Shown here piece by piece: positions 2,830 through 45,627 of a DNA stretch of 64,000 bases; position 1 is the first letter of the stretch; each line of letters opens with the position of its first letter. The notes beneath the pieces were generated by a model that had not been told where the DNA came from, did not search any database, and worked only from the letters and a program-made list of their open reading frames with translations. The position numbers and the translations under genes are program-made. This DNA is from Gemmatimonadota bacterium (GTDB taxonomy: Bacteria; Latescibacterota; UBA2968), in the NCBI GenBank assembly GCA_026706845.1, contig JAPOXY010000082.1, positions 15,779 to 79,778 of the forward strand, written 5' to 3'.

Positions 2830-5535
2830 TTAATCTCCCTCTGAAAGCACCGCAAAATTTTCCCGCAACTTCGACAGTGTATCCCGATACTCGCGCTCGC
2901 GCTCGCGCTCTTTTGCCACGACCTCTGCGGGGGCATTATTCAAAAAACCCGCATTGCTCAACTTCTTCTCCAATCCGCTCAACGCCTTTTCCAATCCGCC
3001 AATCTCCTTCTCCAACCTCTGACGTTCCACAGTGAGATCTATCACGCCGGCCAAAGGCACAAAAATTTCCACATCACCAACCACAGCACTCGCAGACGCT
3101 GCCGGGCGTTCTAAAGCCGCGCCAAGGGTCAAATTTTCAACGCGCCCCAACGCCTTCATATAGCCCTTAACAGACGTCAAAATCGCACGTGCCTCCTCTG
3201 AATCCGTCTTACACACCACATCCACGAGCTTGCCCGGCGGAATACGCATTGTACCTCGAATATGGCGCACAGCACCCACCACATCCCGCATCAAAGCCAT
3301 TTCTCGCTCGGCAGCTTTATCAAATTGCGTCTTGTCGCATTTGGGCCAGGGCGCGGCAATAAGAGCCTCGCCTTCTCGTGGAAAGGTCTGCCACAACGCC
3401 TCTGAAATAAAAGGCGCAACGGGATGCAACAGGCGCAGCGTGCCTTCAAACACGACACACAAAACCGACTGCGCGGTTTGACGGGCAGTTTGATCATCGC
3501 CATACAGGCGCACTTTCGCCATCTCCACATACCAATCGCAATACGCGCTCCACACAAAATCGTACAACGCGCGCGCCGCCTCGTCAAAGCGATACGCCTC
3601 CAAAGCCTCTGTAACCTGCAACACCGTGCGATTGTACAAACTCAAAATCCACCGATCAGAAAGGTCCGTAATCGGCTCGGGGACCGTCAGCAATGCCACA
3701 TCGAGTATGTCGCGATCGTCCAGATTCATTTGTACAAACCGCGCGGCATTCCAGATCTTGTTGCAAAAATTGCGGCACATTTCCGCAATGGGCGAATCTT
3801 GCAACTTATTGTCCTTCACATCGGCATCAAACCGAATATCCTGCGAACTGCCGCATTGGTACAAAAGCGATAGGCGCGTGGCATCTGCGCCATAGCGGTC
3901 AATCAATTCGCGCGGATCAATCCCCGTACCCAACGACTTGCTCATGCGCTTGCCATCGCGCGTTTGCACCGTGGGATGAACCAGCACCGTCCGAAACGGA
4001 ATCTCGCCCACAAATTCAACAGCTGTCATAATCATCCGAATCACCCACAGATACAAAATATCCCGTCCCGTAATCATCAAATCCGTCGGATGAAACAGCT
4101 TCAAATCCTCCGTATCTTCGGGCCAACCCAGCGTTGCAAAAGGCCACAGTGCCGAGGAAAACCACGTATCGAGCACATCGGGATCTTGCGTCAACTGCTG
4201 ACTGCCACACGTTGTACACACTTCGGGAGGCTCTGCATTCACAATCACCTCGCTGCAATTTTCACACGTCCACACCGGAATGCGGTGCCCCCACCACAGT
4301 TGTCTCGAAATACACCAGTCGCGGATATTCTCCAGCCATTCAATCGAATATTCCCGAAACCGATCCGGCACATAATCGATCTTTTTTTCTCGCATCAAGG
4401 GCAAAATCAAATCGGCCAAATCGCGCATCGCCACAAACCACTGCTCCATAGGCATCGGTTCAATCACCGTGCCACAGCGGTCGTGATGCGGTACCGCGTG
4501 GGTATAATCCTCAATTTTTTCCATCAACTCCAGCTCGTCGAGTGCCTCGACCACCGCCTTGCGACACGCATAACGGTCCTGCCCGACATAAACGCCCGCA
4601 TCCTCCGTCATCTCGCCATTCAGACCAATAACCGCGATTTCGGGCAAATCGTGACGCTGCCCTATCTCGTAATCATTGGGATCGTGTCCCGGCGTCACCT
4701 TCACCGCACCGCTCCCCATTTCCGGATCGGCATAGTCATCTGCCACAATGGGAATGGGGCGATTCATAAGCGGCAACATCACCCTTTTACCCACAGCATT
4801 GCGCCATCGCGCATCGGATGGGTGCACCGCCACTCCGGTATCGCCCAGCATGGTTTCCGGACGCGTTGTCGCCACAACCACATCGGGCGCACCATCTATC
4901 CCTTTGTACCGAATATGCCACAAGTGACTATCGACCTCTCTTTCCTCCACCTCGAGGTCGGAAATCACAGTGCCACACTGCGGACACCAGTTCACCATGC
5001 GTTTGCCCCGATAGATCCAGCCCTTCTCGTAAAAACGCACAAACGTCTCCAACACCGCCCGCACATACTCCTCATCCATTGTAAATCGCTCGCGCGACCA
5101 GTCATAACTACAGCCCAACTCGCGCAACTGTCGCAAAATTGTGCTGCCGTATTTTTCTCGCCAGGCCCATATCCGTTTCAACAAATCTCTGCGCCCAATT
5201 TCTCTGCGCGTCTTTTTTTCGTTCTCCCAGATCTCCTGCTCCACCTTCATCTGCGTGCCAATACCCGCGTGATCTGTACCGGGCAAACACAGCGTGCGAA
5301 ATCCCCGCATCCGCTTGTATCGAATCACCGCGTCGTGAATCGCGTGTTGTAGCGCGTGGCCCATGTGCAACTCCCCCGTCACATTGGGTGGCGGAATCGT
5401 CACCGTATAGGCGGGACCTGTCGCGCGAAATTCCGGACGAAAATATCCCTTCCTGTACCAAAAATCATACCACGTCTTTTCAATATCTTTTGGATCGTAA
5501 GCACGCTCCAAAGCTTTATTCTTCATCGTCTCCAT
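2830..5535 (-). CDS. valS: valyl-tRNA synthetase
   Basis: 901 aa; HMGH (HIGH-type) and KMSKS motifs, PPPNVTGELHMGHA, C-terminal coiled-coil. Confidence 0.95.
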   Translation of the reverse strand: METMKNKALERAYDPKDIEKTWYDFWYRKGYFRPEFRATGPAYTVTIPPPNVTGELHMGHALQHAIHDAVIRYKRMRGFRTLCLPGTDHAGIGTQMKVEQEIWENEKKTRREIGRRDLLKRIWAWREKYGSTILRQLRELGCSYDWSRERFTMDEEYVRAVLETFVRFYEKGWIYRGKRMVNWCPQCGTVISDLEVEEREVDSHLWHIRYKGIDGAPDVVVATTRPETMLGDTGVAVHPSDARWRNAVGKRVMLPLMNRPIPIVADDYADPEMGSGAVKVTPGHDPNDYEIGQRHDLPEIAVIGLNGEMTEDAGVYVGQDRYACRKAVVEALDELELMEKIEDYTHAVPHHDRCGTVIEPMPMEQWFVAMRDLADLILPLMREKKIDYVPDRFREYSIEWLENIRDWCISRQLWWGHRIPVWTCENCSEVIVNAEPPEVCTTCGSQQLTQDPDVLDTWFSSALWPFATLGWPEDTEDLKLFHPTDLMITGRDILYLWVIRMIMTAVEFVGEIPFRTVLVHPTVQTRDGKRMSKSLGTGIDPRELIDRYGADATRLSLLYQCGSSQDIRFDADVKDNKLQDSPIAEMCRNFCNKIWNAARFVQMNLDDRDILDVALLTVPEPITDLSDRWILSLYNRTVLQVTEALEAYRFDEAARALYDFVWSAYCDWYVEMAKVRLYGDDQTARQTAQSVLCVVFEGTLRLLHPVAPFISEALWQTFPREGEALIAAPWPKCDKTQFDKAAEREMALMRDVVGAVRHIRGTMRIPPGKLVDVVCKTDSEEARAILTSVKGYMKALGRVENLTLGAALERPAASASAVVGDVEIFVPLAGVIDLTVERQRLEKEIGGLEKALSGLEKKLSNAGFLNNAPAEVVAKEREREREYRDTLSKLRENFAVLSEGD

Positions 5536-5564: not shown

Positions 5565-7103
5565 TTACACCGAATAACTTCGCCACCCCTCATAGATCGT
5601 CCGGACAGCTACTTTAATCACCGCTGTCGTGGGCACAGCCAACAACATGCCGACTGCGCCAAACAACTCGCTGCCAACGAACACAGCAAAAATGACGAGC
5701 AGAGGATGCAAATTAACACTGCGCCCAACCACCATAGGAGCGACAAAAACATTATCTACGAGTTGAACGATCGCAAACACTATAATCACTGGGATAACCA
5801 CACCAAAACTCAGCGCAGAATATTGCAATACAGCGGCAACAACACCGGCAATAATCCCAATCGCAGGTCCCATATAGGGAATTACATTGGCCAAACCAGC
5901 GAGAAGACCAATCACCAAAAAATGTTCCAGACCGATGATATAAAGTCCGGTACTTGACAGAAGCGAAACAATTATTACAGATAACACCATACCGCGCATA
6001 TAGCTCCCCAATTGCCTGTCAATGCGATGCAACAGATTCAATATCAGTTCGAAATATCGATTTGGCACCTGCACGATAATCGCATGCTTCATCGTTCTGC
6101 CCTCTGCCAAAAAAAAGAATAAAGCAAAAGGCACAATGATGAACAAGGTAAGTCCCGATAGCAATTGCCCGACCAATCCGGGAGTTTCCTTAAGCAAAAT
6201 TGTCACGACGTTTTGCAGGTACTGATTCGCGGCCTGTATCCAATCGCGGCCCTTGAGCATTGGCAAAATTTCTTCCACCCAATCGCGGCCCTTAAGCATT
6301 GGCAAAATTTCTTCGAGATAGGTCTGAGCTGATTTCAGCCACGGCAGGAATGAAGTTTCATAAACTGACTTGAGTGCCATCAAAGAACTGGGCTTGTATT
6401 TGCCAAACGCATGTTTTGTCGCCGAGATTAAAATTTTAGATGTGCCAAATTGAACCGAAGCCATTGTATCCGAAACCGATGACACATCCTCCATATTTCC
6501 TCTAAGCGTCAACACAATAGAATCTTCCCGGCTGCCAGACGAACCGTACAACCTCAAAGACGCCTGGCGCGGTTCATCCGCTTGTGGAGAAAATACCACG
6601 CGCAGTGTATCTCGCCCACCGACCACTTTTGGGTTGGCCTGTGGGGCAGCGGATTCCGCGTCTCCCCCACCGGGTATCAATTCCAGGGGCAAGCCATCAA
6701 CCTTAAAATCTTCGAGTTCGCTCTCAAACCGATCAATCTTCACCACATCATCGCCCGTATTTTCCACCACACAGTACCAGGTGCCCTGCTCACCAATAAT
6801 GCTCTTGACCATATCCTCCGTACCGCGCACAATCATAGGCGCGACCACAATAAGCGGAATGACCACAATTGCAAAAACAGCCAGCAAGACGACAACCACG
6901 GCGACAAGACGATTTAAGCGGTGCGATTCGAGAAAATCAACCACAGGCATGAGAAAATACGACAGCACAAACGCAATAAAAAAAGGGACCAGCGTACTTC
7001 GAATAGTATATAGCAACCAGATCATCACAACGATGAGGCCCAAAAAAATCACAATACGCAAAATTTGAGCAGTGCCCAGGCCGCCAGAAGATGGTTCATT
7101 CAT
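5565..7103 (-). CDS. AI-2E family transporter (UPF0118/PerM-like) with a large inserted soluble domain
   Basis: N-terminal TM helices LVPFFIAFVLSYFLMPV and a C-terminal AI-2E core (GLANVIPYMGPAIG..). A ~200 aa non-membrane insert sits between the helices. The start overlaps the upstream gene by 4 nt. Confidence 0.7.
   Translation of the reverse strand: MNEPSSGGLGTAQILRIVIFLGLIVVMIWLLYTIRSTLVPFFIAFVLSYFLMPVVDFLESHRLNRLVAVVVVLLAVFAIVVIPLIVVAPMIVRGTEDMVKSIIGEQGTWYCVVENTGDDVVKIDRFESELEDFKVDGLPLELIPGGGDAESAAPQANPKVVGGRDTLRVVFSPQADEPRQASLRLYGSSGSREDSIVLTLRGNMEDVSSVSDTMASVQFGTSKILISATKHAFGKYKPSSLMALKSVYETSFLPWLKSAQTYLEEILPMLKGRDWVEEILPMLKGRDWIQAANQYLQNVVTILLKETPGLVGQLLSGLTLFIIVPFALFFFLAEGRTMKHAIIVQVPNRYFELILNLLHRIDRQLGSYMRGMVLSVIIVSLLSSTGLYIIGLEHFLVIGLLAGLANVIPYMGPAIGIIAGVVAAVLQYSALSFGVVIPVIIVFAIVQLVDNVFVAPMVVGRSVNLHPLLVIFAVFVGSELFGAVGMLLAVPTTAVIKVAVRTIYEGWRSYSV
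6240..6317. repeat. In-frame 39-bp tandem duplication (2 units, 4 mismatches) inside the AI-2E transporter CDS
   Basis: ccaatcgcggcccttgagcattggcaaaatttcttccac / ccaatcgcggcccttaagcattggcaaaatttcttcgag; encodes EEILPMLKGRDWV/EEILPMLKGRDWI. Confidence 0.9.
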
Positions 7104-40862: not shown

Positions 40863-40869
40863 TATTTCT

Positions 40870-41757
40870 TCACGCCCGTGGATGCGCTTGTCGATAGGCT
40901 CTTTTTAACCGCTCAACACTCACATGCGTATAAACCTGCGTAGTAGAAAGACTCGCATGACCGAGCAATTCTCTCACCGCATTGAGATCTGCGCCTGCAT
41001 CCAGCAGATGGGTTGCATAAGCGTGGCGCAATGCATGGGGGGACAAAGTCCGCCCGGTCGCTTTGCCGAGATACCGGGCAACGCGACCTTGAATACCACT
41101 CGGACTCAGCGGACGCCCAGAGCGCGCCAAAAACAAATGACGTCTATCCGTCGTCTGCTCAGAAACCAGTTCCTCTCGCCGCATCAAATAAGCCACCAGT
41201 GCGACCCGGGCCGGTTCCCCAAAAGGAACCAGGCGCTCTTTGTTGCCCTTGCCTATAACCCGCACCAGTTTATCTGCCAGATCCACAGCCTCAATTTTAA
41301 GCCCCGCAAGCTCGCGCAATCGAATTCCCGCGCTATAAAACAACTCCAAAATCGCCCGATCGCGCAATCCCAACACCGTATTGGGCGACGGCAGGGACAT
41401 CGCGCGGGCAACCTCGTCAACATCCAGATAAACGGGCAATATCTTATCCTGCCTGGGCGGACGCACATCGAGTGCTGGATTCCGATCCAAATCCCCCACA
41501 TTGCACAAATAACTCAAAAACGTTCGCACCGCCGCCAGCTTTCGGGCAACAGACCGCCGACCAAATCCCCTATTGAGCAAAAATCCCAAAAAATCCCGCA
41601 CTGCGTTCCGATCAATCTGTTCCACGCGATCCACCTGACGCCCATGCAAAAAAGCGGCGAACTGCTCCAGATCCGTGTTATATGCCGCACACGTATGATC
41701 GGACAATCGCCGCTGCCGCGATAGATGGTTGAGAAATTGTGTAATGGATGTTTTCAT
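40870..41757 (-). CDS. tyrosine site-specific recombinase, XerC/XerD family
   Basis: 295 aa; ARGxxR box, HALRHAYATHLLDAGADLNAVRELLGHASLSTTQVYTHV with the catalytic Tyr. Size and motifs are Xer-like rather than phage-integrase-like. Confidence 0.85.
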   Translation of the reverse strand: MKTSITQFLNHLSRQRRLSDHTCAAYNTDLEQFAAFLHGRQVDRVEQIDRNAVRDFLGFLLNRGFGRRSVARKLAAVRTFLSYLCNVGDLDRNPALDVRPPRQDKILPVYLDVDEVARAMSLPSPNTVLGLRDRAILELFYSAGIRLRELAGLKIEAVDLADKLVRVIGKGNKERLVPFGEPARVALVAYLMRREELVSEQTTDRRHLFLARSGRPLSPSGIQGRVARYLGKATGRTLSPHALRHAYATHLLDAGADLNAVRELLGHASLSTTQVYTHVSVERLKRAYRQAHPRA

Positions 41758-41929
41758 GGCAATGTGAATTAAGTAGAGTTAAAAGCTCTCCACCCTTCTT
41801 GGACGCCCTTGCTTAAAACAAGAGCGTTATAAGTGCCAACAGTCATTACTGACATTGTTCTGCTGCCGTCATCGCGGCATGATGTTGAGCCGCAATCCAG
41901 AAGGTTTTGAGCCGCTGACTGCTTGTTTT

Positions 41930-42178
41930 CTAACTGCTGATCACTAACCGCTGCACATCAAACTGCATCTGGAGATTCAGCCAGAATAAAGGATCAACGC
42001 CGAACCAGTGCCCGAAGCGCAAAGCAGTATCGCTATCCACAGAACACTTGCCCGCGATAATCTGGCCAATGCGATATGGCGGCACATCAATCTGGCGTGC
42101 AAATGTCACTGGATATACCCCAAATTCCACCAATTCGTCTCGCAGAATCTCTCCGGGATGAACAACGCGCTTCAACAT
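41930..42178 (-). CDS. higA: HigA-family (XRE-HTH) antitoxin
   Basis: MLKRVVHPGEILRDELVEFGVYPVTFARQIDVPPYRIGQIIAGKCSVDSDTALRFGHWFGVDPLFWLNLQ is the plasmid-maintenance antidote (HigA/VapI) signature. No higB found beside it. Confidence 0.75.
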   Translation of the reverse strand: MLKRVVHPGEILRDELVEFGVYPVTFARQIDVPPYRIGQIIAGKCSVDSDTALRFGHWFGVDPLFWLNLQMQFDVQRLVISS

Positions 42179-42291
42179 GGCTCAGATCCTCGCGTTTTTA
42201 GTGATAATCTACAACCTCGACATCGGTTGGTCTGGGACTATCGGATCAGGTAAAGCATAGTTAGGGGATCATCTATTCTCATTCTTATTTT

Positions 42292-42378
42292 TTAATGGAC
42301 CGCCGACCATCCATGGCACTTCAGAACAGGCACCCAATCAGGTGACAGATTCATGTCAATCAGAAGCTTCACACTCAT
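42292..42378 (-). pseudogene. truncated DUF5615 (Mut7-C/PIN-like toxin) remnant, 28 codons
   Basis: ATG overlaps the DUF433 stop (ATGA). Translation MSVKLLIDMNLSPDWVPVLKCHGWSAVH then a stop; matches the conserved DUF5615 N-terminus (M.LLLD.NLSP..V..L...GHDAVHV). Only ~110 bp remain before higA. Confidence 0.55.
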
Positions 42379-42605
42379 GGAGTGACCAGTGCAACTTCCC
42401 GTTCTTCGACCCGCCAGGCTGCATAGGCCAGAGCTTGATCGATATCTTCACGCTCGAGATAAGGATAGGCTTTCAGAATTTCCTCGTGTGATCGACCAAC
42501 TGCCAAGAGCCCCACAACAGTTCCAACCGTCACCCGCATTCCCCGAATACATGCCTTACCGCCCATGACCGCGGGATCGAAAGTAATTCTCGCGAATTTT
42601 TCCAC
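42375..42605 (-). CDS. DUF433 domain protein (antitoxin partner of DUF5615)
   Basis: GTG start behind AAGGAG RBS; FDPAVMGGKACIRGMRVTVGTVVGLLAVGRSHEEILKAYPYLEREDIDQALAYAA is the DUF433 signature. Confidence 0.75.
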   Translation of the reverse strand: MEKFARITFDPAVMGGKACIRGMRVTVGTVVGLLAVGRSHEEILKAYPYLEREDIDQALAYAAWRVEEREVALVTP

Positions 42606-42665
42606 GCGCTATCTCCTTCTATATCCGTAAGGACAGTAACTTTCATTGTTGACAAAACCATAACA

Positions 42666-42947
42666 TCATAATATGCCCGATTTTCGCACGGCTTGAATTT
42701 CGCGGTTTATCTCTTCCAAATCCATCTTATCAAGACCTTTTTCAACCGATTGCTTTTGAAGTTCATCAACGGCTTGAATCGCACGCACACGACGGAAAGC
42801 CGCCAGGGTTTCTTCCCAATCGGCATCGGAAACAGATGACAAAATGGCGATAGGTTTTCCCTGAGCCGTAATCACCATTTCTCGCTCATCAGCCAACTGC
42901 TCCCAAATTTCGGATGGTCGCAGATCTCTTATTTGAATAAAACGCAT
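42666..42947 (-). CDS. Phd/YefM-like antitoxin-fold protein
   Basis: MRFIQIRDLRPSEIWEQLADEREMVITAQGKPIAILSSVSDADWEE follows the Phd/YefM N-terminal pattern; acidic helical C-terminus. Confidence 0.55.
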   Translation of the reverse strand: MRFIQIRDLRPSEIWEQLADEREMVITAQGKPIAILSSVSDADWEETLAAFRRVRAIQAVDELQKQSVEKGLDKMDLEEINREIQAVRKSGIL

Positions 42948-42978
42948 TGTGGAATCTCCTACTGCCTTTCAAAACCTT

Positions 42979-43034
42979 CTGGATTGCGGCTTAAACCATG
43001 CCGCAATGACGGGCGAGGCCTGCCTCGCCCCTAC
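42979..43034 (-). terminator. two adjacent stem-loops downstream of topA (possible terminator/insulator)
   Basis: ATTGCGGCttaaaccatGCCGCAAT (8-bp stem) and GACGGGCGAGGcctgCCTCGCCCCT (10-bp stem, one mismatch); only a weak T-run. Confidence 0.4.
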
Positions 43035-43092
43035 GGTTGTTCATCCTTCTTGTATCTTGAGACGGGCAACCACAAGGGATTGCCCCTACATC

Positions 43093-45537
43093 TCACTTCC
43101 TACTTCTTCTTCTCGACCTTCTCCTATTCGTCGCCGGATTTTCCGCAATAATTTTTTTGCAAGCCGCCTGTGTCAAAGACGACGCCTCCACGCCCTTTGG
43201 AATGCGGTAATTATTACCATTGTGTTTGATATAAGGACCGTAGCGCCCGGCGAGAACCTGAATCCCGTCAAAATCGTGAATCACCTGTTGCGACTGCCTG
43301 CCGCCCGCTCCGCCCTGCATAAATTTTTCGAGCGTCTCGCGGTCTAATGTCGCCGCATCCGTCCCTCTGGGAATCCTGTAATTCTTGCCATCTTTGCGAA
43401 TATAAGGACCATACCGCCCATTGAGCACCTGGAAATCGCCAAAATCGCGAATCACATTTTTGGCTTTGCGATCTTCCTCGGCAGCCGCGATCTCCAACGC
43501 GCGATCCAGCGTCACCCCAAACAGATCCTCTCCCTCTGGCAGGGAGAAAAAGTTGCGACCTATTCGCACATAGGGACCATACCGGCCAGTATTGACCTGC
43601 ACCTCATCACCCGCATCATTTTGCCCGAGTTTGCGGGGCAATTCAAAACACTTGAGAGCATCGGCCAATTCAATATCAAAAATACTCTGATTGGGAGGCA
43701 AAGATGCAAACAGAGGCTTTTCCTCTTCACCTGCACCACCAACTTGAACATAGGGACCGTAATTGCCAAAACTCACACTCACCTCGCGCCCCGTATTGGG
43801 ATCTTTGCCCAACTTGCGCCCAATTTTACCAACTGACTTCTTGTCTTCCACCCGCTTATTAAACGGCGGATAAAAAGCCTCCAACATCGCCTTCCACGAA
43901 TTTTTCCCCTGTGCAATCTCGTCAAAATCGTCTTCGAGATGCGATGTAAAACGCAAATCGACAATATCGGGAAAATGCGCCATCAAAAAATCGTTCACCA
44001 CCTCGCCGATATCTGTGGGTTTGAGCTTCTTATCTCGCGTGCGTTCCACATACTCCCGGCTCTGAATCGTCGAAATCGTCGGTGAATAAGTCGAGGGACG
44101 CCCAATACCCTCGCCCTCGAGCTTCTTCACCAGCGAAGCCTCTGTATAACGCGCGGGCGGCCTGGTAAACAACTGCTCCAAATGCAACTTCTCCAAATTG
44201 AGCACCTGTCCCTTTATAACCCTGGGCAAAATCACATCTTTATCACTGATATTGGCCTCTGGATCATCTGACCCCTCGGCATAAACCCTCAAAAATCCAG
44301 GGAATAAAACGCGCTGCCCCTTTGCCTCAAAAATCAATTCACCCGCTTCACCTGCCCGAATGCGAATCGTCGTATATGCAATACGCGCATCGGCCATCTG
44401 CGTCGCCAACGTGCGCTTCCAGATCAAATCGTAAAGCCGAAATTGTCGGGGATCGAGATGGGTCCTGACGCTATTGGGTTTAATCGACAAATCCGCCGGA
44501 CGAATTGCCTCGTGCGCTTCTTGCGCCCCCCTGGTTCTATTGGCAAATCGGCGGGGCTTTTCCACGGTGTAATCCCGGCCAAACTCCTGAGCAATCACCT
44601 CCCGCGCCTGATTCACCGCCTGCTCGGCCAAACTCACCGAATCGGTACGCATATACGTAATCAAACCGCCGGTATATCCGGGAATTTCAAAATTGCCCTC
44701 GTAAAGCTGTTGTGCAACCCGCATCGTCTGCGACACGGAAAAACTTAGTTTGCGAGACGCCTCTTGTTGCAGCGTCGATGTCGTAAACGGAGGCACGGGC
44801 CGCCGCACACCCTCGCGCTCGACCACCTCTGCCACGACAAATTGCCCCTTCAGCGCGCTCGCTTCAATAGCTCTGGCCTCGGCTTCATTTTTCACAGACG
44901 CTTTTTTCCCATTCTGCCGCGTCAATTCAGCCTGAAATTTGGGATCCTTAAAATCGGATTTAATTCTCCAATATTCCTCTGGCTTAAACGCCCGAATTTC
45001 CCGCTCCCGATCAACGATAATCCGCACCGCCACACTCTGCACGCGTCCGGCTGACAATCCCCCCTTTACCTTTCGCCACAACAAAGGCGACAACTCATAT
45101 CCCACAGCGCGGTCCAAAATGCGACGCGCCTGTTGTGCATCCACCAAATTTTGATCCAGTTCGCGCGGATTTTCAAGCGCGTGCAAAACCGCAGACCGGG
45201 TAATCTCGTGAAACACAATCCGCTTAATGGGCTGATTCTTAAGCCCCAGCGCGAAAATCAGATGCCACGAAATAGATTCTCCTTCGCGGTCTTCATCCGT
45301 CGCCAAATATACAGTCGTATCTTTTTTAATATCCTTCTTCAGTGCCTGAATCACACTGCGCTTGTCTTGTGACACCACGTATTTGGGATCAAAACTTTCC
45401 ACATCAAAGCCCAATTCGCGTGCGGGAAGATCGCGCACATGCCCCATAGAAGCAGCGACTTTGTAGTCCTTGCCCACAAATCGAGAAATTGTGCGTGCCT
45501 TAGCAGGTGATTCGACAATAATCAAATTTTTTGCCAT
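43093..45537 (-). CDS. topA: DNA topoisomerase I
   Basis: MAKNLIIVESPAKARTISRFVGKDYKVAASMGHVRDLP Toprim N-terminus; catalytic core. C-terminus has three GRYGPY-type repeat modules. Confidence 0.95.
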   Translation of the reverse strand: MAKNLIIVESPAKARTISRFVGKDYKVAASMGHVRDLPARELGFDVESFDPKYVVSQDKRSVIQALKKDIKKDTTVYLATDEDREGESISWHLIFALGLKNQPIKRIVFHEITRSAVLHALENPRELDQNLVDAQQARRILDRAVGYELSPLLWRKVKGGLSAGRVQSVAVRIIVDREREIRAFKPEEYWRIKSDFKDPKFQAELTRQNGKKASVKNEAEARAIEASALKGQFVVAEVVEREGVRRPVPPFTTSTLQQEASRKLSFSVSQTMRVAQQLYEGNFEIPGYTGGLITYMRTDSVSLAEQAVNQAREVIAQEFGRDYTVEKPRRFANRTRGAQEAHEAIRPADLSIKPNSVRTHLDPRQFRLYDLIWKRTLATQMADARIAYTTIRIRAGEAGELIFEAKGQRVLFPGFLRVYAEGSDDPEANISDKDVILPRVIKGQVLNLEKLHLEQLFTRPPARYTEASLVKKLEGEGIGRPSTYSPTISTIQSREYVERTRDKKLKPTDIGEVVNDFLMAHFPDIVDLRFTSHLEDDFDEIAQGKNSWKAMLEAFYPPFNKRVEDKKSVGKIGRKLGKDPNTGREVSVSFGNYGPYVQVGGAGEEEKPLFASLPPNQSIFDIELADALKCFELPRKLGQNDAGDEVQVNTGRYGPYVRIGRNFFSLPEGEDLFGVTLDRALEIAAAEEDRKAKNVIRDFGDFQVLNGRYGPYIRKDGKNYRIPRGTDAATLDRETLEKFMQGGAGGRQSQQVIHDFDGIQVLAGRYGPYIKHNGNNYRIPKGVEASSLTQAACKKIIAENPATNRRRSRRRSRK

Positions 45538-45627
45538 CAAAACATCCTTTATCATTCAGGGTAGGGGCGACGCTCCTGTATTCGCCCATTACAATCCAGA
45601 AAAAAATACGCGCACCAATTACAAAAG

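What the first reader, a model, noticed from the sequence alone, without database searches (positions are those of the whole stretch)
40870..43092. Array of three antitoxin-type genes with no toxins, beside a Xer-family recombinase, in a lower-GC islet
A Phd/YefM-like gene, DUF433, the DUF5615 remnant and a HigA-type XRE antitoxin sit consecutively on the minus strand, each with its own upstream spacer. No full-length toxin ORF (HigB/RelE, DUF5615, Doc/YoeB) is present in any frame. The segment from 41760 to 43090 is visibly more AT-rich than the flanking topA and surface-protein genes. It directly abuts a 295-aa XerC/D-type tyrosine recombinase. I read this as the decayed core of an integrated element whose antitoxins were retained, possibly as protection against incoming TA-carrying elements. 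An alternative is that the antitoxins are orphan transcriptional regulators.
Basis: partly seen in the sequence, partly recalled or inferred. Interest (0 to 1): 0.5.

Follow-up and report, generated by a model that had tools for sequence, protein, structure and literature searches.

The report
Toxin-less antitoxin trio in a variable hotspot
Three toxin-antitoxin pairs between two housekeeping genes (topA and xerC) of a sponge-symbiont bacterium have lost their toxins by deletion while the antitoxin genes are still kept intact by selection; this is a clear but not new kind of gene decay.

Summary
On the minus strand lie topA, a Phd/YefM-type gene (42947-42666), DUF433 (42605-42375), a 28-codon DUF5615 stub, HigA (42178-41930) and a 295-aa Xer recombinase. 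No intact toxin is present in the 64 kb.

- **Xer is not an islet integrase.** topA-xer adjacency is conserved in the closest genome, which has no small genes between them, and in 15 or more loci from distant phyla.
- **The interval is hypervariable.** Close relatives (sponge-metagenome MAGs) carry here the same antitoxin blocks in different orders. They also carry intact Phd-PIN_3 or DUF433-DUF5615 pairs, an M48/PDZ peptidase, and a Helicase+DUF2290 defence pair.
- **The window is the most reduced state.** The DUF5615 loss maps to a ~2.1-kb deletion at CCAT microhomology. The HigB and PIN losses are older and shared with relatives.
- **The orphan antitoxins are under purifying selection.** Omega is 0.06-0.25, and they diverged in step with xer.
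- **The GC dip is mild.** The islet is 0.483 against 0.520 for the window.
- **A 45-nt inverted repeat brackets the islet.** It is a dispersed palindromic repeat, not the ends of a transposon.

This is a new member of a known kind, orphan antitoxins.

The parts
43093..45555 (-). topA (DNA topoisomerase I), the conserved left flank of the hotspot
   Evidence: TIGR01051 760.8 bits. Collinear with relatives.
43009..43088 (-). Two GTAG-headed GC-rich hairpins downstream of topA: GTAGGGGC...GCCCGT at 43062-43088 and 43009-43034
   Evidence: The same hairpins are found downstream of topA in L100, L101 and L114.
42969..43012 (.). Right copy of a 45-nt palindromic repeat (the 'arm'): CCGTCATTGCGGC-N9-GCCGCAATCCAGAAGGTTTTGA
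   Evidence: It is present downstream of topA, ahead of the first island gene, in L083-85 and L099-L101, and in truncated form in L114 and L119.
42666..42947 (-). Orphan Phd/YefM-type (VapB-like) antitoxin, 93 aa
   Evidence: The ortholog in L083-85 is followed, with a 4-nt overlap, by an intact 140-aa PIN_3 toxin. Omega 0.24, P=6e-5.
42628..42669 (-). Possible 5' stub of the lost PIN_3 toxin gene; it starts at the ATGA overlap with the Phd stop codon
   Evidence: Alignment to the L083 PIN start (shuffle P about 0.01). The evidence is weak.
42375..42605 (-). Orphan DUF433 (COG2442, VapB10-type) antitoxin, 76 aa, GTG start
   Evidence: Pfam E=3e-25. PDB 2ga1. Paired with an intact DUF5615 in L100, L118 and L119. 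Omega 0.06, P=6e-10.
42292..42378 (-). DUF5615 (PIN-like toxin) stub: codons 1-28 plus a stop codon supplied by the deletion junction
   Evidence: Homology to L100 and L119 ends at 42294.
42265..42298 (-). Last codons and 3' flank of an M48/PDZ peptidase gene. This is the right edge of a ~2.1-kb deletion, joined at CCAT microhomology.
   Evidence: 94% identity to L119 8417-8450, and to the equivalent region of L114.
42198..42260 (-). HigB toxin stub: last 20 codons, with an in-frame stop, ending ...VEVVDYH*
   Evidence: The same stub is shared with L113-L116.
41930..42178 (-). Orphan HigA antitoxin, 82 aa; the usual 96-aa C-terminus has been replaced
   Evidence: Homology to the 96-aa forms ends at 41957. 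Omega 0.25, P=1.7e-6 among orphans sharing the same HigB stub.
41762..41957 (-). A ~196-nt segment that replaces the HigA 3' end and the HigA-xer spacer of 96-aa-HigA relatives. It carries the left, inverted copy of the 45-nt repeat at 41866-41910.
   Evidence: Shared with L094-97 and L114-116, and absent from L113, L098 and L099.
40870..41757 (-). XerC/XerD-family tyrosine recombinase, the conserved right flank of the hotspot
   Evidence: 92-95% nucleotide identity to relatives, beginning at its start codon. Omega 0.05-0.15.

Best explanation
The islet is the most reduced state of a hypervariable accessory hotspot. The hotspot sits between two conserved core genes, topA and a housekeeping XerC/D-type recombinase. 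The organism belongs to a sponge-symbiont lineage whose MAGs are labelled Gemmatimonadota or Latescibacterota.

Three type II toxin-antitoxin modules once lay here:
- a Phd/YefM-type VapB with a PIN_3 toxin;
- DUF433 with a DUF5615 PIN-like toxin;
- HigB-HigA.

Their toxin genes were removed by separate deletions.
- PIN was lost early; the breakpoint is shared with L094, L100 and L113-115.
- HigB was cut to its last 20 codons early; the stub is shared with L113-116.
- DUF5615 was lost most recently. A ~2.1-kb deletion between CCAT microhomologies also took out a 144-aa gene and an M48/PDZ peptidase gene.

Toxin-first loss is the only viable order of decay.

What is shown: the gene remnants, the breakpoints, the conserved flanks, the variable content in relatives, and purifying selection on all three orphan antitoxins.

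What is inferred: the antitoxins are still expressed and useful. The most likely use is binding closely related toxins made elsewhere in the genome or brought in by mobile elements (trans-neutralisation, or anti-addiction). Keeping their DNA-binding repressor activity is the second option.
For: Identity of the parts.

Conserved flanks:
- The closest GTDB genome, L003, has BatA-topA-xer-Big_5-hyp-M10 collinear with the window, with about 110 bp between topA and xer.
- topA-xer adjacency recurs in 15 or more loci from other phyla.

Hypervariable interval, always between the same topA and xer:
- L083-85: Phd+PIN_3.
- L094-97: Helicase+DUF2290, Phd, DUF2513, HigA.
- L098, L099, L100: different cargo in each.
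- L113-116: DUF433-Phd-M48-HigA, and a DUF433-HigA form.
- L119: intact DUF433-DUF5615, a 144-aa gene, M48, HigA.

Breakpoints:
- DUF5615 homology stops at 42294.
- 42298-42265 is the 3' end of the M48 gene.
- The HigB stub is identical in structure in the window and L113-116.
- The Phd-side breakpoint is shared with L094 and L113-115.

Selection:
- Omega is 0.25 for HigA, 0.06 for DUF433 and 0.24 for Phd. Binomial P is 1.7e-6, 5.6e-10 and 6.2e-5.
- Antitoxin dS is similar to xer dS.

Plausibility of action in trans: a relative's closed chromosome has a second DUF433-DUF5615 pair 930 kb from the hotspot. The toxins are 88% identical and the antitoxins 91%.

Literature:
- Orphan antitoxins are abundant and have been proposed as anti-addiction modules (PMC7192599).
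- COG2442-PIN is a validated VapBC-type pair (PMC3834315, PMC2701414).
- Sponge symbionts are enriched in HigAB and COG4634/COG2442 (PMC5649159).
Against: - Expression of the orphans is untested. The simple sigma-70 and terminator scan found nothing in the islet, though the promoters of this phylum are unknown.
- The rest of this organism's genome is not available. Whether it encodes matching toxins is therefore unknown, and none is in the 64 kb.
- The omega estimates use a star-like count on few, short and related sequences. For DUF433, part of the divergence may predate toxin loss, because the truncations are independent.
- Phd misses the Pfam gathering score as a single sequence.
- The origin of the shuffled block order (Phd before DUF433 here, after it in L113-115) is not explained mechanistically.
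Confidence: 0.8

Rival explanations
1. One reading: the segment is the decayed core of an integrated mobile element, and the adjacent Xer-type recombinase is that element's integrase.
For: A tyrosine recombinase directly abuts the islet. The islet is accessory DNA, absent from L003. One relative, L098, has a 54-nt partial copy of the xer 5' end upstream of HigA, which resembles an att-type duplication.
Against: - Xer matches XerC/XerD models over its full length.
- It sits next to topA in the islet-free relative and in many phyla.
- It evolves like a core gene, with omega 0.05-0.15.
- No direct repeats lie at the islet borders.
- Islet dS equals flank dS.
Confidence: 0.04
2. The three genes form a cassette bounded by terminal inverted repeats (arms at 41866-41910 and 42969-43012). 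It would be moved by a transposase in trans or by Xer recombination, as in mobile insertion cassettes or the pdif modules of Acinetobacter plasmids.
For: A 45-nt inverted repeat, 93-96% matched, brackets exactly the three genes. Each arm contains an 8-bp palindrome. The repeat is dispersed in other genomic contexts. A Xer gene is adjacent.
Against: - The two arms have separate histories. The topA-side arm is present in relatives whatever the island content, ahead of Phd or ahead of HATPase_c_4.
- The xer-side arm came with a replacement of the HigA 3' end. It is absent from L113, which otherwise has the same content as L114.
- No target-site duplication was found.
- The palindrome spacing (8 bp arms, 9-10 nt spacer) and the sequence do not resemble a 28-bp dif site (my own knowledge of dif; not tested with a model).
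- There is no GC-skew switch here.
- No copies were found in viral contigs.
Confidence: 0.05
3. The orphan antitoxins are neutral relics that simply have not decayed yet.
For: Toxin-first loss necessarily leaves intact antitoxins for a while. The window's DUF5615 deletion looks recent, since it is not shared with any sampled relative.
Against: - The HigB and PIN losses are shared by lineages that have since diverged by dS about 0.2. Even so, HigA and Phd show omega about 0.25, with P below 1e-4.
- DUF433 is intact after at least four independent DUF5615 truncations: 8, 26, 28 and about 30 codons retained.
- An orphan Phd is conserved in a second genomic context in more than 20 contigs.
Confidence: 0.1
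4. The orphans are kept as stand-alone transcription factors, not as toxin neutralisers. HigA is an XRE-type helix-turn-helix (HTH) protein, and Phd and DUF433 are DNA binders. They might regulate xerC or other loci.
For: - All three families are DNA-binding autorepressors (established knowledge; HigA HTH matches).
- The 82-aa HigA keeps the whole HTH model but has lost the usual C-terminal tail.
- Purifying selection is compatible with this reading.
- A palindrome lies just upstream of Phd.
Against: No regulatory target has been identified. The palindrome is a dispersed repeat found in unrelated contexts, not a specific operator. Closely related intact toxins exist in relatives' genomes, which makes neutralisation at least as plausible.
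Confidence: 0.2

Closest known systems
Orphan (solo) antitoxins and chromosomal anti-addiction modules, for example the orphan antitoxins catalogued in Klebsiella pneumoniae (PMC7192599)
   Same: Antitoxin genes remain in the original TA context with the toxin deleted or truncated. Possible roles are anti-addiction, cross-talk or regulation.
   Different: Three different antitoxin families are orphaned side by side. The same three recur, reshuffled, across many relatives at a single hotspot, with measurable purifying selection. No neutralisation has been demonstrated here.
HigBA type II toxin-antitoxin system (TIGR02607 HigA; RelE-like HigB ending ...DYH)
   Same: HigA passes the curated model and matches solved HigA structures. 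The toxin-first gene order is shown by the HigB stub directly upstream.
   Different: HigB is reduced to 20 codons with a stop. HigA is 82 aa instead of 96, and its C-terminus has been replaced.
COG2442(DUF433)-PIN(COG4634/DUF5615) VapBC-family pair, for example Synechocystis VapBC10 (PMC3834315; PMC2701414)
   Same: DUF433 lies upstream, and the toxin gene starts at an ATGA overlap. An intact 122-aa DUF5615 partner is present in relatives L100, L118 and L119.
   Different: Only 28 of 122 toxin codons remain in the window.
Phd/YefM-type VapB with a PIN (VapC) toxin, for example M. tuberculosis VapBC5 (PDB 3dbo)
   Same: The profile of the family hits the VapB5, VapB46 and YefM structures. The ortholog in L083 is coupled to a PIN_3 toxin.
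   Different: The toxin is absent here. The single sequence scores below the Pfam gathering threshold.
Variable defence or accessory hotspots between conserved core genes
   Same: The flanks (topA, xer) are fixed. The cargo differs between close relatives and includes a PADLOC Helicase+DUF2290 pair, Schlafen/HATPase, proteases and TA modules.
   Different: This particular topA-xerC hotspot has, to my knowledge, not been described. No integrase or transposase was seen in the sampled variants.
REP / MITE-like dispersed palindromic repeats
   Same: The arm is a short element of about 45 nt with sharp ends. It has a conserved 8-bp stem, variable loops and nested insertions, and it occurs in unrelated intergenic sites.
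   Different: No associated RAYT or transposase and no target duplication were identified. The copy number per genome is unknown.

Membership tests
HigA antitoxin (HigBA) | Matches the curated HigA model above its cut-off; XRE-type HTH fold | tested here: met
   TIGR02607 67.8 bits against 47.7. P. aeruginosa and P. vulgaris HigA structures at E 1e-13 to 1e-11.
HigA antitoxin (HigBA) | Intact HigB (RelE-like) toxin gene immediately upstream | tested here: not met
   Only residues 74-93 remain, with an in-frame stop. An intact HigB was seen only in the distant locus L104.
DUF433-DUF5615 (COG2442-PIN) TA pair | DUF433 domain antitoxin | tested here: met
   PF04255 88.2 bits against 23.6. PDB 2ga1.
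DUF433-DUF5615 (COG2442-PIN) TA pair | Full-length DUF5615 PIN-like toxin downstream | tested here: not met
   28 of 122 codons remain. The toxin is intact in L100, L118 and L119.
Phd/YefM antitoxin | Matches the Phd/YefM profile | tested here: inconclusive
   PF02604 22.5 bits against a gathering score of 29.8. TIGR01552 is below its cut-off. However, homologues at 55-72% identity carry PF02604, and the family profile hits VapB5, VapB46, RelB and YefM structures.
Phd/YefM antitoxin | Cognate toxin gene directly downstream | tested here: not met
   Absent in the window. A PIN_3 toxin is present at that position in L083-85.
XerC/XerD housekeeping recombinase | Full-length match to Xer models, with SAM-like N-domain and catalytic domain | tested here: met
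   NF001399 294 bits against 279. TIGR02224 328.5 against 335, just below. PF02899 and PF00589 both match. The R..K..HxxR..H..Y residues are visible in the translation (read by eye).
XerC/XerD housekeeping recombinase | Conserved chromosomal position independent of accessory DNA | tested here: met
   topA-xer adjacency in L003 and in 15 or more loci from distant phyla. Omega 0.05-0.15.
Integrated mobile element (integrase plus att sites) | Element-specific integrase and flanking direct repeats | tested here: not met
   Xer is conserved without the islet. No border direct repeats were found.
Integrated mobile element (integrase plus att sites) | Compositional or divergence signature of recent acquisition | tested here: not met
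   GC 0.483 against 0.520, at the 5.5th percentile, which is mild. dS of the islet genes is about equal to dS of xer.
Inverted-repeat-bounded cassette (MIC or pdif-type module) | Both terminal repeats travel with the cargo | tested here: not met
   The arms occur independently of each other and of the cargo in relatives.
Inverted-repeat-bounded cassette (MIC or pdif-type module) | The repeat is a recombinase or transposase substrate | not testable with these tools
   Needs binding or cleavage assays.
REP/MITE-like dispersed repeat (the 45-nt arm) | Multiple copies in unrelated intergenic contexts, with a conserved hairpin | tested here: met
   Four further full copies in the sponge metagenome MKWU01. 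The stem is 97.5% paired in 10 copies; covariation is weak, at one pair.

The most novel reading that the evidence does not exclude
In this sponge-symbiont lineage the topA-xerC hotspot may maintain a toxin-free set of three antitoxins (Phd-type VapB, DUF433, HigA). The set would be a selected 'immunity array' that neutralises toxins of incoming or paralogous TA modules, that is, anti-addiction or anti-abortive-infection. It is repeatedly regenerated by toxin-specific deletions and block shuffling.
Probability: 0.25. Interest if true: 0.6.

Novelty: new member of a known kind. Interest (0 to 1): 0.35.

Why it matters
Orphan antitoxins are common, but it is rarely shown whether they are junk or are kept by selection. 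Here three different antitoxins are orphaned at one locus. Their deletion breakpoints are dated relative to lineage splits, and all three still evolve under purifying selection. That makes this locus and its many natural variants a convenient test case for the anti-addiction and cross-neutralisation idea in TA-rich symbiont genomes. It also documents a topA-xerC variable hotspot carrying defence cargo. Finally, it corrects an annotation trap: a tyrosine recombinase next to accessory genes is not necessarily their integrase.

Tried and rejected
1. **One deletion for two toxins.** My first idea was that a single deletion from inside DUF5615 to inside higB removed both toxins. It is rejected. The 34 nt between the two stubs are the 3' end of an M48/PDZ peptidase gene. 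The HigB stub is shared with L113-116, which still have that gene. The two losses were therefore separate events.

2. **Inverted arms as transposon ends or Xer sites.** Rejected as the main reading, because the arms have independent histories in relatives.

3. **A genome-wide REP family for the GTAGGGGC hairpins.** Only the two copies downstream of topA occur in the 64 kb, so this is undecided.

4. **Rfam and tRNA scans of the islet, looking for an att-type RNA gene target.** Nothing was found above noise and there are no tRNAs.

5. **Promoter and terminator consensus scan.** No sites were found, which is uninformative for this phylum.

6. **Pfam scan of the 24-residue HigB stub.** No hit. The stub was confirmed instead by tblastn with an intact HigB from L104.

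7. **Viral contig scan for the arm.** No matches.

8. One dN/dS comparison (Phd of L094) was mis-registered by my own offset and is ignored; it was redone. A fuzzy-regex search timed out and was replaced by blastn-short.
Full report
**1. What is in the sequence**

All genes from 47688 down to 36282 lie on the minus strand. The order is as follows.
- A BatA-like protein.
- topA (45555-43093; TIGR01051 761 bits).
- A 93-aa Phd/YefM-like gene (42947-42666).
- A 76-aa DUF433 gene (42605-42375; Pfam E=3e-25).
- An 82-aa HigA (42178-41930; TIGR02607 67.8 bits against a cut-off of 47.7; HigA structures at E about 1e-13).
- A 295-aa Xer-type tyrosine recombinase (41757-40870).
- A Big_5 surface protein.

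Xer matches XerC and XerD models over its full length. NF001399 passes its cut-off and TIGR02224 is just below.

Phd is below the Pfam gathering score as a single sequence. A profile of its homologues finds the VapB5, VapB46, RelB and YefM structures.

**2. Toxin remnants**

- **DUF5615.** Directly at the ATGA overlap with the DUF433 stop codon, a 28-codon ORF reads MSVKLLIDMNLSPDWVPVLKCHGWSAVH*. It equals residues 1-28 of the intact 122-aa DUF5615 of relatives (89% identity, E=4e-14; PF18480 E=0.004).
- **HigB.** Immediately upstream of HigA, another frame reads LCFT*SDSPRPTDVEVVDYH*. This aligns with residues 74-93 of an intact HigB found upstream of a HigA homologue in L104.
- **PIN.** After the Phd stop codon, about 40 nt resemble the 5' end of the PIN_3 gene that follows Phd in L083. 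This is weak, with shuffle P about 0.01.
- **Elsewhere in the window.** tblastn with intact PIN_3, DUF5615 and HigB finds nothing else in the 64 kb.

The compositional claim is only mildly true. GC is 0.483 against 0.520, at the 5.5th percentile of same-size windows. The dip is driven by Phd and the spacers.

**3. The recombinase is a core gene, not an islet integrase**

The window comes from a sponge-metagenome scaffold (ROBB21-1 SAMN13943208).

The closest species representative in the genome collection is L003, a Candidatus Latescibacterota MAG with Xer at 64% identity. It has BatA-topA-xer-Big_5-hyp-M10 collinear with the window. Only about 110 bp separate topA and xer, with no small genes between them.

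topA immediately upstream of xer recurs in at least 15 further loci. These come from Chloroflexota, Planctomycetia, Elusimicrobia, Spirochaetia, Bacillota and others.

Between close relatives Xer evolves with omega 0.05-0.15.

**4. The topA-xer interval is a hypervariable hotspot**

Contexts of near-identical antitoxin homologues show the same flanks with different contents.

| Loci | Content between topA and xer |
|---|---|
| L083-85 | Phd plus an intact PIN_3; MazE/PemK lies after xer |
| L094-97 | A PADLOC Helicase (1017 bits) plus DUF2290 (295 bits) defence pair, then Phd, DUF2513, a 200-aa gene, HigA82 |
| L098 | Unknown genes, a 54-nt partial copy of the xer 5' end, HigA96, a 171-aa gene |
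| L099 | HATPase_c_4, M48/PDZ peptidases, DUF433, HigA96, Phd fragments |
| L100 | Schlafen/HATPase, a Phd 3' fragment, DUF433 plus intact DUF5615, then trypsin and tubulin-like genes |
| L113-115 | DUF433, Phd, a small ORF, M48/PDZ, HigA |
| L116 | DUF433, an internally deleted DUF5615, HigA82 |
| L119 (closed 5.3-Mb chromosome) | DUF433 plus intact DUF5615, a 144-aa gene, M48/PDZ, HigA, a 211-aa gene |

Homology to the window always resumes within 4 nt of the xer start codon.

**5. Breakpoints and order of events**

DNA comparison divides the islet into blocks.
- **T:** topA, hairpins and the arm.
- **P:** Phd, 42971-42658.
- **D:** DUF433 plus the 5' part of DUF5615, 42625-42296.
- **H:** the M48 3' end, the HigB stub, HigA and xer, 42298-40860.

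The window is T-P-D-H. The events can be ordered as follows.

- **DUF5615 (recent).** Homology to the intact DUF5615 of L100 and L119 stops at 42294. The next 34 nt are the last codons and 3' flank of the M48/PDZ gene of L114 and L119. The window therefore lost about 2.1 kb in L119 coordinates, at a CCAT microhomology. The lost DNA comprised DUF5615 codons 29-122, a 144-aa gene and the peptidase gene.
- **HigB (older).** The HigB stub, with the same flanks, is shared with L113-116.
- **PIN (older).** The Phd-side breakpoint is shared with L094 and L113-115.
- **Independent DUF5615 truncations.** DUF5615 was truncated separately several times. Eight codons are retained in L099 and L101-103, 26 in L114, about 30 with an internal deletion in L116, and 28 in the window.

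My initial single-deletion idea is thus rejected.

**6. Are the orphans kept by selection?**

Synonymous divergence of the antitoxin genes from relatives is 0.18-0.34. This matches xer at 0.15-0.27. The blocks have therefore co-diverged with the flanks and were not recently imported.

I counted distinct changes against neutral expectation.

| Gene | Sequences compared | Omega | Binomial P |
|---|---|---|---|
| HigA | Orphans that share the same HigB stub | 0.25 | 1.7e-6 |
| DUF433 | All copies | 0.06 | 5.6e-10 |
| Phd | Orphans that share the breakpoint | 0.24 | 6.2e-5 |

An orphan Phd at 84% protein identity is also conserved in a different context, between a peptidase M19 gene and a sulfatase gene, on more than 20 contigs.

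These are rough tests on short, related sequences. They nevertheless argue against neutral relics.

**7. How it probably works**

Shown: toxin-first decay of three TA modules in an accessory hotspot, with the antitoxins retained under constraint.

Inferred: the antitoxins still act. The most economical role is binding closely related toxins. A relative's chromosome carries a second DUF433-DUF5615 pair 930 kb away, with toxins 88% identical and antitoxins 91% identical. Sponge symbionts are known to be enriched in exactly these TA families (PMC5649159). Orphan antitoxins as anti-addiction modules or cross-talkers is an existing proposal (PMC7192599). A purely regulatory role is the main alternative.

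None of this could be tested functionally here.

**8. The inverted repeat**

A 45-nt sequence, CCGTCATYGCGGC-N9/10-GCCGCRATCCAGAAGGTTTTGA, occurs at 42969-43012. An inverted copy lies at 41866-41910. Together they bracket exactly the three genes.

- It is a dispersed repeat. Four more full copies lie in unrelated intergenic contexts of the Aplysina aerophoba sponge metagenome MKWU01.
- The 8-bp stem is 97.5% paired across 10 copies, but with only one covarying pair.
- The topA-side copy is a constant feature ahead of whatever gene comes first in the island.
- The xer-side copy arrived with a ~196-nt replacement of the HigA 3' end. This gave the 82-aa HigA. It is absent from L113, which is otherwise like L114.

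The arms are therefore not the ends of one mobile cassette. What they do remains open.

**9. Comparison with known systems, and verdict**

Each gene belongs to a known family: HigA, DUF433/COG2442 VapB-like, Phd/YefM VapB-like, and XerC/D. None of the three TA systems is complete.

The phenomenon, orphan antitoxins after toxin loss in a variable region, is known. The specifics are new but not categorically so: three families together, recurrent across relatives, under selection, at a topA-xerC hotspot that also carries defence genes. Interest is moderate to low.

Noticed in passing
window 41866-41910 and 42969-43012; L109-L112: A ~45-nt palindromic repeat with sharp ends is dispersed in unrelated intergenic sites of sponge-symbiont DNA. 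Copies show variable loops and nested insertions (a 20-nt insert in L083/84, a hairpin insert in L100). In L101 it lies in the opposite orientation next to a similar flanking sequence. No transposase or RAYT was identified.
   Followed up: partly
window 43009-43034 and 43062-43088: Two GTAG-headed GC-rich hairpins (GTAGGGGC...GCCCGT) lie downstream of topA and are conserved in relatives. They look REP-like, but these are the only two copies in the 64 kb.
   Followed up: partly
L098 4937-4990 versus 6040-6095: A diverged 54-nt copy (about 80% identical) of the xer 5' coding end sits upstream of HigA. It flanks a 1.1-kb insert (HigA96 plus a 171-aa coiled-coil or membrane protein) as a direct repeat with the real xer start. 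This looks like an att-type duplication or a recombination scar.
   Followed up: partly
L083 6691-7276; L113 7711-8231; window 40863-40869: Some relatives carry a MazE-like plus PemK toxin pair between xer and the Big_5 gene. The window has only a 7-nt spacer there, so the downstream side of xer is a second small variable site.
   Followed up: no
L094 794-3597: A full-length PADLOC Helicase (1017 bits) plus DUF2290 (295 bits) candidate defence pair occupies the same hotspot in relatives. L100 carries Schlafen/HATPase, trypsin-like and very large tubulin_2-like genes there.
   Followed up: partly
L086-L093: An orphan Phd homologue (84% protein identity) lies between a peptidase M19 gene and a sulfatase gene on more than 20 contigs of another population, with no toxin. 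Its protein sequence is identical across samples.
   Followed up: no
L105-L107 about 2960-3000: In an unrelated lineage HigB is again reduced to the same kind of roughly 10-residue C-terminal stub (..GVEIVDYH*) upstream of an intact HigA. The sister locus L104 keeps the full HigB, although its gene call there is on the wrong strand. The recurrent retention of the last ~30 nt of higB may reflect HigA's ribosome-binding site or promoter lying inside it.
   Followed up: partly
L099 6231-6349; L101 1450-1565; L102; L103: A chimeric junction occurs in several relatives: the first 8 codons of DUF5615 are fused to the 3' half of a Phd gene. Many 55-80-aa Phd fragments also appear in the protein database. 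TA gene fragments seem to act as recombination substrates in this hotspot.
   Followed up: partly
L118 3587-4596: A relative's chromosome has a second intact DUF433-DUF5615 pair next to a third, divergently oriented DUF433 gene, 930 kb from the hotspot.
   Followed up: partly
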